From NCBI GenBank assembly GCA_000002445.1, contig CH464491.1, positions 1,888,001 through 1,952,000 on the forward strand: 64,000 nt of DNA, read 5' to 3'. Below are positions 14,115 through 17,662 of the stretch, piece by piece. The position numbers and the translations under genes are program-made. The number at the start of each line of letters is the position of its first letter. Position 1 is the first letter of the stretch. The notes beneath the pieces are model-generated. The model saw only the letters and a list, made by a program, of their open reading frames with translations, ran no database searches and was not told the DNA's origin. This DNA is from Trypanosoma brucei. Its lineage: Eukaryota.

Positions 14115-17018
14115 TCATAGCCGGTATTCGCGCGGGAGCGGGTCTGTCATTACCCAACCACCCTTGTCGGGCTTCAGTCCCTTCGCAGATTCCTTCTCTA
14201 GCCACACTTGACGCATAATCTCGTACAACGCCTTCGTGTCCAGAGAGCAGTACTCAAGTAACTGGATCCGAAGCATGGCCCACGCCTTGTCCCGGACATC
14301 AGGACGGGCGGCTTGCACCATCGTGTCCAATTTGTTCTTGCCCTCGTAAATACCGCGGCGCCGCTCGTCTTGCATGACTGTCTGCTGGAGGTCTCTTAAT
14401 GAGCCTCCACCTTCGTGGTGATACCACAAGCGGTACACACCCATGGCATTTTCGCCCTTCTGCTCGTCCTGCCGCCCACCACCACCACTACCTTCTCCCT
14501 CACCTGCATCAACCACGTCACCAGCCGCATCCCCACCAAAAACACCATACTTGAAATCAGGACACAAGCCCGGAAGAACCTTTTTCAGTGAATTAGAGCC
14601 ATGCGCGTTGGGGTGAACAAACCCTCGTTTAAACAAGTCAAGTGTATCAAGGAAATAGAACTGTTTGATTTCCTCCTTGTACTCATCCACCAACTGCCCC
14701 AATTTCTCCAAGCAAGATTTTTCAAAGCTGGCAAAGTGGGCAATGAAGCACCCATCGTAGAAGTTGACGGGTTCGTGTAGTGGATTATTTTTAGTAATAT
14801 TGGGTCCCCGAGCCTTGGTTGCGCGACGACCTCGCCGCGCGTTGGTGACTGCTGCAAACTCCTCTTCTTCCAGCTGCTTTTTTAGCCTCTCTAACCTCGC
14901 TAGTTCTCCAGACGCCGTCATCGCATCCCGTTTTTTCGCCCGCTCCTTCCGCACGATGTGCATTAGTTCCGCAATGCATGCACGCCGCGGGTCTTCATTC
15001 GGAGAGTAGCCCTTACCGAAGTGCAAGAAGTCATAGTGCGTTGGCGTTTCGTTGAGAACATCCTCCTGAAACACATCAAGAGAAAACTGGAATGGTAAAG
15101 GCTGAAATGCAACGACTTTTTCAAACGGGGGTAACGCGAATTGCGTTGCCTCAAAGTCGATTAAAAAAGCCGGATAGCGGATGCGCGAGAAGAAATCTTC
15201 AATTTCCTTGGGGTTGACAAATACTTTACCCGCTGTTATAGCCTTCACGTATCGTAACTGTGGTGCAGTAAGGTTAACAGCACCCTTTTTGTATTGGTAC
15301 AAAACGTCCTGGACCGTACGGAGGCCCTGTAACCACCATGTAGTCTTTCTCGAAACAGCGGTAGACGGAACGGTAAAAAGGTGATTATCACGCTGTCGAA
15401 TCGGTTCATCAAACTTGTTAGGTAAGCAAAGACCCTCAGCAAAAAAGGGACATACATCTCCCCGCGAGCAGTGGGCACCAATAAACTCCGAGTAAGTCGG
15501 AACGCATGGTATCTGAGTAGCACAGTGTCTACCTCCACCTTTACCTGTTGCCGTCGGCCCCTGCTTTGCCTTGGCAGCTTTGCCTTTCTTGCCTTTGTCC
15601 TCCTGGTCGTCCACTAACATCCCACTCTCGCCCTCATCAACAAATGTTGCCTTCAATACAGCGTCGGTATCACTGGCAAAAGCACGCCACTTCTGCGCAT
15701 TCGCAGGCTCTCGTCCCATTTCGACAAGCCGCAAAGTGCGAGTACTAATCAGTGCTTCCACCAGTTTCTGTTGCTTTGCGAATAATTTCCGCAGCTCCAC
15801 CTCCCTCTTCTTCGCGGTTCGGTTGGAGGTGCTGCCAGCCCATTGCTGGCGACCGTGACCACGTTCCTGCATGGCTTCCACCTCGGCCTGTAATTTAGTT
15901 ATGTCCTGCTCATCACTGGATGGAAACTCACCCGTGCCGAATGCGCTGCCCGATCGCTGGCTGTTATTTATGTCCGCGTCAATCATATCCTCGAGGGACA
16001 GCCGTTGTACATATTTCACAAGCCGAGTCGGATCGCAGTCCATCAACGTAACGGGTCCGGGAAAGAATTGCCGAATGTGCAGTAACCCACTGCGTTTTAA
16101 GTCCAAAGGCACCGCGACCTCTGCAGCAGTTTCCAGTCGATGACCCTTGAGATTCTTTTCAGTGACGGTGTCAAGGTCAATATCCAGGAATCTCTTTCGT
16201 ATACCTATTGGGATGTGTGGTTGCGTTATCCAGTAGCGAAAGGCAACTGTCGTGAAGTGCAACCTTTGCAGGTACTGTGCAAGTCGTACCGGGTTGCCTG
16301 CTGGGTCAAGTGCGGAGGCGGTTTCCAAGATAACCCACTGGTTGTCTTTGGGTCGGAACCGCAGCACCGCTGGTCTCGCCCGCAGTATAATGTCAGCCGC
16401 TCCCTTCTTTCCTCCTTGCTGAACCTTTTGTTGCTCCTGTGAGCCCCTACTCTGACCCCCAAATGGCGTCGCGAACGCGGGCCGATGGATTGTTAAAGCG
16501 GGAGCTTGGTCACCCAGTTGGGCGTATACAGTCTGGAAGTATTTCAACAGAATTTCCTCCGAGCGGCGAACTGCATCTTCAAAGTTCTGCTCCTGCACTA
16601 CAACAGCACGACTCCCAAACTGCAGCCGATCCCACCGCCGCGCAAGCTCGTTGAATGCTGCGCCGTCGTCGAGGTGTACCGCATCCGCTATAGAGATATC
16701 ACTAGTTAGGTCTGTATGGTTTTGCAGCAGGTGAAATTTCTTTGGACATGTAAGGGAAGCGGCAAAGCCCTTGTACGTGAGAATAGCCGGTGACCTCGCC
16801 GCCGACGATGTGGCCCGCTGTGTCGTCCCTTCGGATGATTTCTCTTTATTGTCGCTTCCATCCCGCCCCTCCAGGCATTCGTCCAAGTCTGACATCGGCT
16901 CTGATGCTTCCCTGTAACTACGCAACACGTGCCGGAGGGGTTCATCCGCGTCGTTCACCTTCTTCACGGCATCCACCACGGATGAAACGAGCGTCGAGTG
17001 GGCCTTCTTACGGAACAT
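14115..17018 (-). CDS. Hypothetical ~967-aa protein with a C-terminal RNase-H-like (DEDDy-type 3'-5' exonuclease-like, DUF2779-like) module and a Cys cluster upstream of it.
   Basis: Candidate Exo I motif AFLIDFEATQFALP (D..E), then PFQFSLD, then an Exo II-like THYDFLHF or YFLDTLDL, then a C-terminal Exo III-like LLEYCSLDTKALYEIM (Y-x3-D). Cys cluster CATQIPCVPTYSEFIGAHCSRGDVCPFFAEGLCLP. The ORF in the track extends to 17123, but its first 35 codons (MFVHLLFPFFSGHNNSHTCVF..) read through a polyY leader. The Met at 17018 (MFRKKAHSTLVSSVVDAVKK) is preferred. Confidence 0.55.
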   Translation of the reverse strand: MFRKKAHSTLVSSVVDAVKKVNDADEPLRHVLRSYREASEPMSDLDECLEGRDGSDNKEKSSEGTTQRATSSAARSPAILTYKGFAASLTCPKKFHLLQNHTDLTSDISIADAVHLDDGAAFNELARRWDRLQFGSRAVVVQEQNFEDAVRRSEEILLKYFQTVYAQLGDQAPALTIHRPAFATPFGGQSRGSQEQQKVQQGGKKGAADIILRARPAVLRFRPKDNQWVILETASALDPAGNPVRLAQYLQRLHFTTVAFRYWITQPHIPIGIRKRFLDIDLDTVTEKNLKGHRLETAAEVAVPLDLKRSGLLHIRQFFPGPVTLMDCDPTRLVKYVQRLSLEDMIDADINNSQRSGSAFGTGEFPSSDEQDITKLQAEVEAMQERGHGRQQWAGSTSNRTAKKREVELRKLFAKQQKLVEALISTRTLRLVEMGREPANAQKWRAFASDTDAVLKATFVDEGESGMLVDDQEDKGKKGKAAKAKQGPTATGKGGGRHCATQIPCVPTYSEFIGAHCSRGDVCPFFAEGLCLPNKFDEPIRQRDNHLFTVPSTAVSRKTTWWLQGLRTVQDVLYQYKKGAVNLTAPQLRYVKAITAGKVFVNPKEIEDFFSRIRYPAFLIDFEATQFALPPFEKVVAFQPLPFQFSLDVFQEDVLNETPTHYDFLHFGKGYSPNEDPRRACIAELMHIVRKERAKKRDAMTASGELARLERLKKQLEEEEFAAVTNARRGRRATKARGPNITKNNPLHEPVNFYDGCFIAHFASFEKSCLEKLGQLVDEYKEEIKQFYFLDTLDLFKRGFVHPNAHGSNSLKKVLPGLCPDFKYGVFGGDAAGDVVDAGEGEGSGGGGRQDEQKGENAMGVYRLWYHHEGGGSLRDLQQTVMQDERRRGIYEGKNKLDTMVQAARPDVRDKAWAMLRIQLLEYCSLDTKALYEIMRQVWLEKESAKGLKPDKGGWVMTDPLPREYRL

Positions 17019-17662
17019 AACCCACACACGCAAGGTTGTACTTGAGTTATATTTGCGTGTGAATACACACGTATGAGAATTATTGTGTCCAGAGAAGAAA
17101 GGGAAGAGCAAGTGTACGAACAAGGCGTTTGAACACGAACAAAGAAAAACGACACCAAATAGAAATACCGTTAAGGAAATGCTTCATAAGGATTCGGGGG
17201 AGGGGGAAATATATTACACCGGAAGACCAAACTGCGACAACAGTAACAGTGGTGTACCAGCTGCTACATCACCACTGTTGCCAATGTGAAGATGACGCTG
17301 GGCAAAAGCAGCTAGGAGGGAGACATCGAGGGCTCGACGCCACTAACAGATACAGTTCAACCAACGCCCACTTGCGTAGTCCCCGCCAGATGCACAGAAT
17401 ACACGGGCAAGCACTGGGGGTGGGGTGGGGAGAAGAGAAATGAAGCTCCGAAAGATTCTGCTACGGGGAACCTTTTACGCGTGTGCGTAGGCTAGTATTG
17501 CCAGTGTGATGCGGGTAGGCACTGGCGAACTGCAGATCGAACATTTAACGGCGGCACCGCTGGATCACTTGCTAGTCGCGCCGGCTGTTGGGAAACCAAC
17601 GAATATCAACAGAAGCATCACCGCAAAGAAGCTAGCAAAAAGTGACCTCCCTTCCCACGGTG

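What the first reader, a model, noticed from the sequence alone, without database searches (positions are those of the whole stretch)
14115..17018. Uncharacterised 1000-aa protein with a C-terminal DEDDy-exonuclease-like / DUF2779-like module
The C-terminal ~450 aa contain, in order, AFLIDFEATQFALP (Exo I-like D-x-E), PFQFSLD, THYDFLHF or YFLDTLDL (Exo II-like aromatic-D), and near the C-terminus LLEYCSLDTKALYEIM (Exo III-like Y-x3-D). This is the motif order of RNase-H-fold 3'-5' exonucleases of the DEDDy type. It is also strongly reminiscent of the bacterial DUF2779 family (FLDFET ... PFQ.S.H ... YC.LDT), which is otherwise prokaryotic. A Cys cluster (C-x5-C ... C-x5-C-x7-C) lies just upstream. 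The protein has no other recognisable domain and lies two genes from the kDNA helicase pair. A nuclease of apparent prokaryotic type in a trypanosome would be worth characterising (organellar DNA/RNA processing?).
Basis: inference. Interest (0 to 1): 0.55.

Follow-up and report, generated by a model that had tools for sequence, protein, structure and literature searches.

The report
Trypanosome mitochondrial DUF2779 two-domain nuclease
The gene is Trypanosoma brucei Tb927.11.6830, already labelled "DUF2779" in public databases: a mitochondrially imported protein with an apparently intact 3'-5' exonuclease domain fused to a Cas4-like iron-sulfur nuclease domain that has lost its catalytic residues, so it is a plausible but untested mitochondrial DNA-processing enzyme.

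Summary
The ORF is real. It lies on the minus strand at 14115-17018 and encodes 967 aa from the first ATG. It is T. brucei Tb927.11.6830, already annotated "DUF2779, putative".

Three corrections apply:
The catalytic set is D621, E623, E766, Y923, D927.
- The PIF helicases lie four ORFs away, not two genes away.

Published ImportOmics data place the protein in the ATOM40-dependent mitochondrial importome. It also co-purifies with RPA from native lysates.

The most likely function is a mitochondrial 3'-5' exonuclease acting on single-stranded DNA ends, with the dead Cas4 domain binding substrate. Activity, substrate and localisation remain untested. Interest is moderate: family membership is already annotated, but the half-inactivated eukaryotic variant has not been described.

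The parts
14115..17018 (-). Coding sequence of Tb927.11.6830 (967 aa plus stop). It is a DUF2779-family protein.
   Evidence: ORF and translation. It differs at 3 residues from T. b. gambiense P0001. Gene identity comes from the neighbouring TTLL6B = Tb927.11.6810 and the product name and UniProt Q384Y7 entry in a published table.
16794..17018 (-). N-terminal extension (aa 1-75), absent from the bacterial homologues. It starts MFRKK, is basic and poor in acidic residues, and is a candidate mitochondrial targeting region.
   Evidence: The median number of residues before the first conserved Cys is 87.5 in the long clade and 16 in bacteria. MF[KR][KR][KR] starts are seen across the clade. pLDDT is low for residues 1-24 and 45-70. 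TargetP and MitoFates were negative in the published table, so the targeting role is an inference.
15984..16787 (-). Cas4/RecB-like PD-(D/E)XK-fold domain (aa 78-345), catalytically degenerate.
16734..16748 (-). CPKKF motif carrying C91, the first of four conserved Cys (putative Fe-S ligand).
   Evidence: C91 is present in 34 of 36 long-clade and 89 of 99 bacterial sequences. It is invariant in kinetoplastids.
16314..16382 (-). Degenerate motif II/III (aa 213-235, RARPAVLRFRPKDNQWVILETAS). It aligns to the bacterial xRxDIL...WxLxEVKS motif.
   Evidence: The bacterial Asp (99 of 99) aligns to Tb A217 and survives in only 5 of 36 long-clade sequences. The bacterial Lys (94 of 99) aligns to Tb A234 and survives in only 3 of 36.
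15687..15911 (-). Long helical insertion (aa 370-444) inside the Cas4-like domain. Bacterial members lack it.
   Evidence: The model shows helices 370-393 and 399-436 with pLDDT of about 87-94. Bacterial rows are gapped here. There is a weak coiled-coil Pfam hit, E=0.21.
15426..15470 (-). C517-x5-C523-x7-C531, the C-terminal three Cys of the Cas4-type four-Cys set.
   Evidence: All three are present in 36 of 36 long-clade sequences and in 89-92 of 99 bacterial sequences, where the pattern is C-x5/6-C-x6-C.
15186..15404 (-). Helical linker (aa 539-611) between the two nuclease folds. It may be a helix-hairpin-helix-like DNA-binding element.
   Evidence: The model shows helices 539-611 at pLDDT above 90. 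The supporting hits are weak: Pfam DNA_pol_lambd_f in 2 bacterial members and Foldseek Pol mu at E of about 3. This is a tentative assignment.
14184..15185 (-). DEDDy-type RNase-H-fold 3'-5' exonuclease domain (aa 612-945). Pfam DUF2779 covers aa 619-810.
15129..15170 (-). Exo I motif AFLIDFEATQFALP (D621, E623).
   Evidence: D621 and E623 are invariant in 135 of 135 sequences. The motif aligns to RNase T IDVET, D23 and E25. It sits on strand beta1.
14838..14990 (-). Lys/Arg-rich helical hairpin (aa 677-727) inserted between beta3 and beta4 of the exonuclease core. It is specific to the long eukaryote-type clade.
   Evidence: The model shows helices 677-703 and 705-727 at pLDDT of about 95. 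Bacterial rows are gapped here.
14712..14738 (-). Exo II motif HFASFEKSC (E766).
   Evidence: E766 is present in 35 of 36 long-clade sequences (the other has D) and in 99 of 99 bacterial sequences. It aligns to RNase T AHNANFD(125)H and to YNqSFE in the N-terminal region of a putative Pol I, 9qhs, E=0.77. It lies at the N-terminus of helix 763-776, directly after beta4.
14634..14657 (-). YFLDTLDL (D791) on beta5.
   Evidence: D791 is present in 35 of 36 and 99 of 99 sequences. It aligns to RNase T FDTAAL. The Asp there is not one of the five DEDDh residues as I recall them.
14580..14597 (-). Family-specific GSNSLKK motif (S808, S810, K812). Its role is unknown; it may contact substrate.
   Evidence: K812 is invariant, and S808 and S810 are at least 92% conserved across 135 sequences.
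14214..14261 (-). Exo III motif LLEYCSLDTKALYEIM (Y923-x3-D927).
   Evidence: Y923 and D927 are invariant in 135 of 135 sequences. The motif lies in the long C-terminal helix 906-944.

Best explanation
The gene encodes the kinetoplastid orthologue of the DUF2779 family, in which two nuclease folds are fused.

Supported here by sequence comparison and structure prediction:
- The C-terminal domain (aa 612-945) is an RNase-H-fold DEDDy exonuclease. All five catalytic-type residues are kept: D621 and E623 (Exo I), E766 (Exo II), Y923 and D927 (Exo III).
- The N-terminal domain (aa 78-345, closed by aa 517-531) is a Cas4/RecB-like PD-(D/E)XK fold. It keeps the four cysteines (C91, C517, C523, C531) that bind a [4Fe-4S] cluster in Cas4, AddB, Dna2 and EXO5. 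It has lost the catalytic Asp and Lys (A217 and A234 in T. brucei).

Shown in published proteomics: the protein is imported into the mitochondrion through ATOM40. It also co-purifies with RPA from native lysates.

Inferred mechanism:
- The exonuclease domain removes nucleotides from free 3' ends by two-metal-ion hydrolysis, with Y923 positioning the attacking water.
- The inactive, Fe-S-stapled Cas4-like domain, the helical linker and the basic helical hairpin hold single-stranded DNA or a DNA end.
- The likely job is trimming or degrading 3' single-stranded DNA ends in kinetoplast DNA replication or repair.
For: Identity and family:
- Pfam DUF2779 hit, E=2e-28.
- UniRef and TriTrypDB already name the protein DUF2779.
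- An exhaustive HMMER search finds 2588 relatives. Most of the best 150 are proteins of about 450-520 aa, and those whose source could be checked are bacterial.

Fold:
- The AF2 model has pLDDT 84.8 and pTM 0.87.
- The N-domain is homologous to the bacterial Cas4-like domain by hhalign, E=3.7e-23.
- Among 97 bacterial relatives, 42 hit Pfam Cas_Cas4 and 30 hit RNase_H_2.

Residues:
- The DEDDy positions are 99-100% conserved.
- The Cas4 catalytic Asp and Lys are kept in 99 of 99 and 94 of 99 bacterial sequences, but in only 5 and 3 of 36 long-clade sequences.
- The Cys ligands are kept in 34-36 of 36 long-clade sequences.
- Exo I and Exo II register against RNase T.

Published family-level predictions agree: Majorek 2014 places DUF2779 in the 3'-5' exonuclease clade together with DUF83. 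The 2026 mSphere paper reports HHpred matches of MMSYN1_0389 to Cas4 and to the DEDDh nuclease MrfB.

Mitochondrion:
- In gradient-purified mitochondria after ATOM40 RNAi, the protein was seen with 21 peptides and a ratio of 0.27 (log2 -1.87), n=4, p=0.004.
- It is also reduced in whole cells (0.65) and in crude organelle fractions (0.52).
- It belongs to the mitochondrial reference sets.

Single-stranded DNA link: the protein is enriched with YFP-RPA2, 70R-TALE and TelR-TALE purifications.
Against: - No enzymatic, localisation-imaging or knock-down data were found for this protein or for any DUF2779 member.
- TargetP and MitoFates did not predict a presequence.
- The L. infantum orthologue is listed as 'Cytoplasm' in a database-derived table.
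- RPA is nuclear as far as I know, so a nuclear or dual role is possible.
Clustering of the acidic residues and of the four Cys could therefore not be measured.
- Foldseek against the PDB was weak, best E=0.075. Sequence profiles found no significant PDB match.
Confidence: 0.55

Rival explanations
1. The protein is a mitochondrial 3'-5' exoribonuclease. It would trim or degrade mitochondrial transcripts (guide RNAs, rRNA or mRNA precursors) rather than DNA.
Confidence: 0.2
2. The protein is a nuclear, or dually localised, RPA-associated DNA replication or repair exonuclease. It would act at single-stranded DNA such as telomeric or 70-bp-repeat regions. In this reading the mitochondrial signal is partial or secondary.
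For: The protein is enriched with YFP-RPA2, 70R-TALE and TelR-TALE purifications, alongside RPA1-3, FACT and histones. TargetP and MitoFates were negative. The sequence contains Lys/Arg-rich segments.
Against: Those purifications used non-crosslinked NP-40 whole-cell lysates with sonication. A mitochondrial ssDNA-binding nuclease could therefore bind RPA-coated DNA after lysis. The protein's abundance depends on ATOM40 in three separate sample types. It was not found in the held nuclear-proteome supplements.
Confidence: 0.15
3. Both nuclease domains are non-catalytic. The protein would be a nucleic-acid-binding scaffold (a pseudo-nuclease).
Against: All DEDDy residues are invariant across kinetoplastids and bacteria. 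Strict conservation of this kind is expected for an active site.
Confidence: 0.05

Closest known systems
Bacterial DUF2779 (PF11074) proteins, for example MMSYN1_0389 of JCVI-syn3.0
   Same: The two-domain order is the same: a Cas4-like N-terminal half, then a Cys triplet, a helical linker and a DEDDy exonuclease. The family motifs are shared: (F/I)DFE, PFQxS, DPR, SFE, GSxSxK and YCxLDT. Pfam membership is met.
   Different: The bacterial proteins are about 450-520 aa and keep the Cas4 catalytic D...ExK (99, 91 and 94 of 99). The T. brucei protein is 967 aa and has lost the catalytic D and K. It also has a 75-aa N-terminal extension, a 75-aa helical insertion, a disordered Lys-rich linker and a basic helical hairpin in the exonuclease domain. 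It is imported into mitochondria. No family member has been characterised biochemically.
Cas4 (SSO0001, PDB 4IC1; Cas4-Cas1 fusion, PDB 7MI4)
   Different: The catalytic Asp and Lys are absent. As I recall, the Cys spacing in Cas4 is x2, x5; here it is x5, x7. There is no CRISPR context, since this is a eukaryotic gene. The domain is fused to a second nuclease.
DEDDh/DEDDy 3'-5' exonucleases (E. coli ExoI, TREX1, RNase T, Pol III epsilon, MrfB)
   Different: Exo II carries Glu instead of Asp. The general-base position is Tyr, not His. There are large helical insertions. Sequence similarity is too low for HMMER to detect.
Mitochondrial genome-maintenance nucleases MGME1, EXO5 and DNA2
   Different: Those enzymes cut with their PD-(D/E)XK site. 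Here that site is degenerate, and the presumed activity sits in a fused DEDDy domain. This is a functional analogy only, not orthology.
Cas4-like + YprB/RNase_H_2 (PF13482, COG2251-type) fusions, including giant-virus proteins
   Same: The full-length fold matches CroV E3T4R0, Sylvanvirus and Yasminevirus proteins (Foldseek E 3e-5 to 2e-4 over about 940-1050 alignment columns). 30 of 97 bacterial DUF2779 proteins also hit PF13482. Majorek 2014 notes the parallel architecture.
   Different: This is a different Pfam family, with only about 9-10% identity. The state of the catalytic residues in the viral proteins was not examined.

Membership tests
DUF2779 (Pfam PF11074) | Match to the family HMM above the curated gathering score | tested here: met
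   99.6 bits against a cut-off of 23.3, E=2e-28, aa 619-810 covering profile positions 2-126 of 126.
DUF2779 (Pfam PF11074) | Conserved family motifs: (F/I)DFE, PFQxS, DPR, SFE, GSxSxK, YCxLDT | tested here: met
   D621, E623, Q644, K812, Y923 and D927 are invariant. E766, D791, S808, S810 and C924 are at least 90% conserved in 135 sequences.
DUF2779 (Pfam PF11074) | N-terminal Cas4-like (DUF83) domain preceding the exonuclease domain | tested here: met
DUF2779 (Pfam PF11074) | Intact Cas4 catalytic D...ExK, as in the bacterial members | tested here: not met
   The aligned positions in T. brucei are A217, E232 and A234. The Asp is kept in 5 of 36 and the Lys in 3 of 36 long-clade sequences, against 99 of 99 and 94 of 99 in bacteria.
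DEDD (DnaQ-like) 3'-5' exonuclease superfamily, DEDDy subtype | RNase-H-like alpha/beta fold | tested here: met
DEDD (DnaQ-like) 3'-5' exonuclease superfamily, DEDDy subtype | Four conserved acidic residues in Exo I, II and III, plus Tyr four residues before the last Asp | tested here: met
   D621, E623, E766 (Glu rather than Asp), D927 and Y923 are conserved in 99-100% of 135 sequences. Exo I and Exo II register against RNase T D23, E25 and D125. The pairwise hhalign score is weak, E of about 0.02.
DEDD (DnaQ-like) 3'-5' exonuclease superfamily, DEDDy subtype | The acidic residues converge on one two-metal site in three dimensions | not testable with these tools
   The structure tool returns confidence values and secondary structure only. 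No coordinates are available.
DEDD (DnaQ-like) 3'-5' exonuclease superfamily, DEDDy subtype | Metal-dependent 3'-5' exonuclease activity | not testable with these tools
   This needs biochemistry. No report exists for any DUF2779 protein.
Cas4 / RecB-family PD-(D/E)XK nucleases with an Fe-S cluster | PD-(D/E)XK fold | tested here: met
Cas4 / RecB-family PD-(D/E)XK nucleases with an Fe-S cluster | Catalytic D...(D/E)xK motif | tested here: not met
   A relocated active site is not excluded, because kinetoplastids carry new invariant motifs in this domain.
Cas4 / RecB-family PD-(D/E)XK nucleases with an Fe-S cluster | Four Cys, one N-terminal and three C-terminal, ligating a [4Fe-4S] cluster | tested here: inconclusive
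   The four Cys (C91, C517, C523, C531) are conserved in the 1+3 arrangement. Cluster binding and Cys proximity could not be tested.
Mitochondrial importome of T. brucei | ATOM40-dependent abundance in purified mitochondria | tested here: met
   This rests on published data, not my own experiment: mean log2 ratio -1.87, p=0.004, n=4, against a threshold of -0.62 or lower.

The most novel reading that the evidence does not exclude
The protein is a kinetoplastid-wide exonuclease dedicated to kDNA maintenance. A fossilised Cas4-type Fe-S domain would act as a DNA-end or ssDNA sensor, and the fused DEDDy domain would process 3' ends of minicircle or maxicircle replication intermediates. It would fill the role played by MGME1, EXO5 or DNA2 in other mitochondria. 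It would be essential and would have no animal-host counterpart. Its RPA co-purification could instead point to a second, nuclear role at telomeric or 70-bp repeats.
Probability: 0.25. Interest if true: 0.65.

Novelty: new variant of a known kind. Interest (0 to 1): 0.45.

Why it matters
Kinetoplast DNA replication depends on many specialised nucleases, helicases and polymerases, and several steps still lack an assigned enzyme. This protein is conserved across Kinetoplastea and is imported into the mitochondrion. It has a complete DEDDy catalytic set and no animal-host homologue found here, so it is a concrete candidate that can be tested directly.

It would also be the first DUF2779 protein with a defined cellular setting. 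The family has thousands of bacterial members, including a quasi-essential gene of the minimal cell JCVI-syn3.0, and none has been characterised.

The retained Fe-S cysteines beside a dead PD-(D/E)XK site offer a natural test of whether the 'iron staple' of Cas4, Dna2 and AddB-type nucleases has a role separate from catalysis.

Family membership and the fold prediction for the family are already public. The advance here is refinement, not discovery.

Tried and rejected
- Sequence and profile searches against PDB sequences found nothing useful. The single protein and the kinetoplastid profile gave no hits. A bacterial-rich profile gave only a marginal Exo II match to a Pol I, E=0.77.
- NCBIfam, PADLOC and PHROGs gave no hits. 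There is no evidence for an anti-phage defence role.
- The second and third word-indexed homologue searches returned few new sequences and no new eukaryote names.
- The afdb50 fold library was unavailable.
- Global-mode hhalign against RNase T failed. Local mode gave only a weak score.
- Searches for the gene ID in the held supplements of TrypTag, the nuclear proteome, the stage-specific SILAC study and the mtTF1 paper found nothing or no files. The RIT-seq paper is not held.
- The bacterial gene context of one homologue was uninformative.
D663 is not conserved across kinetoplastids and is N in the Leishmaniinae sequences. D791 aligns to the FDT motif of RNase T, whose Asp is not one of the five DEDDh residues as I recall them.
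- Rejected: the Cys cluster as a stand-alone zinc finger. It forms the 1+3 Cys set of the Cas4-like domain.
- Rejected: functional linkage to the PIF helicases from gene order. The genes lie in one long co-directional array with four ORFs between them.
- Rejected: T. brucei D209 (AADIIL) as the surviving catalytic Asp. It is not conserved in other kinetoplastids and was an alignment artefact.
Full report
**What is there**

The finding's coordinates enclose an uninterrupted ORF on the minus strand, 14115..17123. The first ATG is at 17018 and gives 967 aa. The protein differs at three residues from the T. brucei gambiense DAL972 protein.

The neighbouring tubulin-tyrosine-ligase ORF is TTLL6B, Tb927.11.6810.

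All the quoted motifs and the Cys pattern are present at the stated relative positions.

All large ORFs in the window lie on the minus strand, as in a trypanosome polycistron. Four ORFs separate this gene from the two PIF1-like helicase genes: an unknown 554-aa ORF, OPA3, an unknown 228-aa ORF and 14-3-3. 'Two genes away' is therefore wrong. Gene order in such arrays is not evidence of shared function (my own knowledge).

**Family**

Pfam gives a single strong hit, DUF2779 (PF11074): E=2e-28, aa 619-810, covering the whole profile. NCBIfam, PADLOC, PHROGs and PDB sequence searches give nothing.

Thirty-three close homologues were found. All those with a source name are kinetoplastid, and most are named 'DUF2779 domain-containing'.

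An exhaustive HMMER search with the kinetoplastid profile against 1.84 billion representatives finds 2588 relatives at E<=1e-3. The best 150 fall into three tiers:
- kinetoplastid sequences;
- a set of long proteins (640-1150 aa);
- proteins of about 450-520 aa. Those whose source could be checked are bacterial or come from bacterial-looking contigs.

Two of the long proteins sit on contigs with the same gene order as this window: DUF2779, an unknown ORF, TTL, an unknown ORF, then BOP1 or the contig end. They therefore come from divergent kinetoplastids. Another long protein is from Cryptobia borreli.

In a rough neighbour-joining tree, all 36 long sequences form one exclusive clade apart from 99 shorter bacterial-type sequences. 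That tree has no bootstrap support and samples only the bacterial sequences that scored best.

**C-terminal domain**

Across 135 aligned family members, D621, E623, Q644, K812, Y923 and D927 are invariant. E766 and D791 are nearly invariant.

The AlphaFold2 model, built with that alignment, is confident: mean pLDDT 84.8, pTM 0.87.
- Core strands lie at 617-625 (carrying D621 and E623), 641-650, 660-665, 757-760 and 789-791.
- E766 sits at the start of the helix that follows beta4.
- Y923 and D927 sit in the long C-terminal helix.

I validated a recalled RNase T sequence against PDB 2IS3. A local profile alignment to that sequence puts IDFEA on IDVET (D23, E25) and AHFASFEK on AHNANFDH (D125). 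It puts LDT on the FDT motif, whose Asp I recall as non-catalytic. The score is weak, E of about 0.02.

The catalytic set is therefore D621, E623, E766, Y923 and D927.

The family-level prediction is already published. Majorek et al. 2014 place DUF2779 in the 3'-5' exonuclease clade. A 2026 analysis of the JCVI-syn3.0 protein MMSYN1_0389 reports HHpred matches to Cas4 and to the DEDDh nuclease MrfB, with Tyr in the histidine position.

The long-clade N-domain was aligned independently of the bacterial sequences. It matches the bacterial N-domain profile with 99.5% probability, E=3.7e-23. Of 97 bacterial relatives, 42 hit Pfam Cas_Cas4.

The bacterial proteins carry the canonical xDIL...WxLxEVKS motif: Asp in 99 of 99, Glu in 91 of 99 and Lys in 94 of 99. 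In T. brucei the aligned residues are A217, E232 and A234. Across the 36 long-clade sequences the Asp survives in 5 and the Lys in 3.

The four cysteines behave differently. C91 in CPKKF, and C517-x5-C523-x7-C531, are kept in 34-36 of 36 sequences. This is the 'one plus three' arrangement that ligates a [4Fe-4S] cluster in Cas4, AddB, Dna2 and EXO5 (my own knowledge; the 2026 paper makes the same point for Cas4).

C499 and C505 are specific to T. brucei.

The degenerate domain is nonetheless strongly conserved within kinetoplastids and carries new invariant motifs. It is under selection for something other than canonical cleavage. Nucleic-acid binding is the simplest guess. A relocated active site cannot be excluded.

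**Features specific to the long clade**

- An N-terminal extension: a median of 87.5 residues precede the first conserved Cys, against 16 in bacteria. It starts MF[KR][KR][KR] and has few acidic residues.
- A well-predicted helical insertion at aa 370-444, followed by a disordered Lys-rich linker.
- A basic helical hairpin at aa 677-727, inside the exonuclease domain.

**Cellular evidence from the literature**

In the ImportOmics study of Peikert et al. 2017, Tb927.11.6830 was identified with 21 peptides in gradient-purified mitochondria.
- It fell to 0.27 of control after ATOM40 knock-down (log2 -1.87, n=4, p=0.004).
- This is inside the defined importome (threshold log2 <= -0.62).
- It also fell in whole cells (0.65) and in crude organelle fractions (0.52).
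- It belongs to the mitochondrial reference sets.
- The TargetP and MitoFates columns are empty for this protein.

Separately, Tb927.11.6830 was enriched with YFP-RPA2, 70-bp-repeat TALE and telomere TALE purifications, together with RPA1-3, FACT and histones. Those purifications used non-crosslinked NP-40 whole-cell lysates with sonication. The association could therefore form after lysis on single-stranded DNA.

A database-derived table lists the L. infantum orthologue as 'Cytoplasm'.

I found no imaging, knock-down or biochemical data.

**Interpretation**

Established with high confidence: family membership, both fold assignments, the intact DEDDy residue set, the degenerate Cas4 site and the retained Cys.

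Supported by published data: mitochondrial import.

Inferred: that the protein is an active 3'-5' exonuclease, that it prefers single-stranded DNA ends, and that it serves kDNA replication or repair. The DNA preference rests on three points: the partner domain's relatives are DNA-end processors, the linker weakly resembles a helix-hairpin-helix, and the protein co-purifies with RPA.

Rivals:
- a mitochondrial exoribonuclease;
- a nuclear or dually localised RPA-linked repair nuclease;
- less likely, a fully non-catalytic scaffold.

**Novelty and verdict**

What appears to be undescribed is a eukaryotic, mitochondrially imported DUF2779 variant in which the Cas4 half is catalytically dead but keeps its Fe-S cysteines.

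This is a moderate-interest lead for kDNA biology and for the uncharacterised DUF2779 family. It is not a categorically new system.

Noticed in passing
L004:10001-12406 and L005:10001-11935 (metagenomic contigs carrying P0050 and P0049): A second lineage of long eukaryote-type DUF2779 proteins exists (P0044, P0046, P0047, P0049, P0050). Some or all of the Cas4 catalytic D/E/K residues are still present in it. Both contigs show DUF2779, then NUDIX, then a 60S acidic ribosomal protein gene, in co-directional gene arrays. One contig has a weak Tc-38 hit, which is kinetoplastid-like. No T. brucei counterpart appeared in the homologue searches.
   Followed up: partly
L001:323-10848 (Logan SRR7085473 contig) and the JGI 3300059473 contig carrying P0039: The gene order DUF2779, unknown ORF, TTL and unknown ORF is conserved between this T. 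brucei window (17018 down to 3342) and two divergent metagenomic contigs. It is followed by BOP1 on the first contig and by a diphthamide-synthesis gene on the second. These 30%-identical 'intermediate' proteins are therefore bodonid-like kinetoplastid orthologues.
   Followed up: yes
window:19728-20450 (-) and protein P0031: An OPA3-family gene lies two ORFs upstream of the DUF2779 gene. One EukProt gene model (P0031, 1253 aa) fuses OPA3 and DUF2779. This is probably a merged gene model of neighbouring genes rather than a real fusion.
   Followed up: no
proteins P0045 and P0185 ('Colponema vietnamica' transcriptome) compared with P0041 (Cryptobia borreli): The DUF2779 protein attributed to the alveolate relative Colponema is closest to the kinetoplastid Cryptobia sequence in the distance matrix. 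I recall that this predator is cultured on kinetoplastid prey. If so, prey contamination is a likely explanation. The family's presence in eukaryotes outside Kinetoplastea remains unproven.
   Followed up: partly
BFVD hits E3T4R0 (Cafeteria roenbergensis virus), A0A3G5AGZ9 (Sylvanvirus), A0A5K0U8I2 (Yasminevirus): Giant-virus proteins match the model over roughly 940-1050 alignment columns (Foldseek E 3e-5 to 2e-4, probability 1.00). They appear to share the Cas4-like plus YprB/RNase-H-like two-domain layout.
   Followed up: no
proteins P0033 (693 aa) and P0205 (286 aa), both on the same 552,005-bp Leishmania tarentolae contig: In L. tarentolae the orthologue appears as two separate gene models, an N-terminal part and a C-terminal DUF2779 part. 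This suggests a frameshift, an assembly error or pseudogenisation in that species.
   Followed up: no
window:26857-29646 (-) and window:30715-33861 (-): Two tandem PIF1-like helicase genes are present, consistent with TbPIF1 (Tb927.11.6890) and TbPIF2 (Tb927.11.6900). Both appear, next to Tb927.11.6830, in the mitochondrial reference-set table of the ImportOmics paper (Supplementary Data 2).
   Followed up: partly
window:11889-13310 (-) and window:17663-19327 (-): The two immediate neighbours are poorly characterised. One is a 473-aa ORF with only a weak N-terminal universal-stress-protein match (E=6e-6). The other is a 554-aa ORF with no Pfam match.
   Followed up: no
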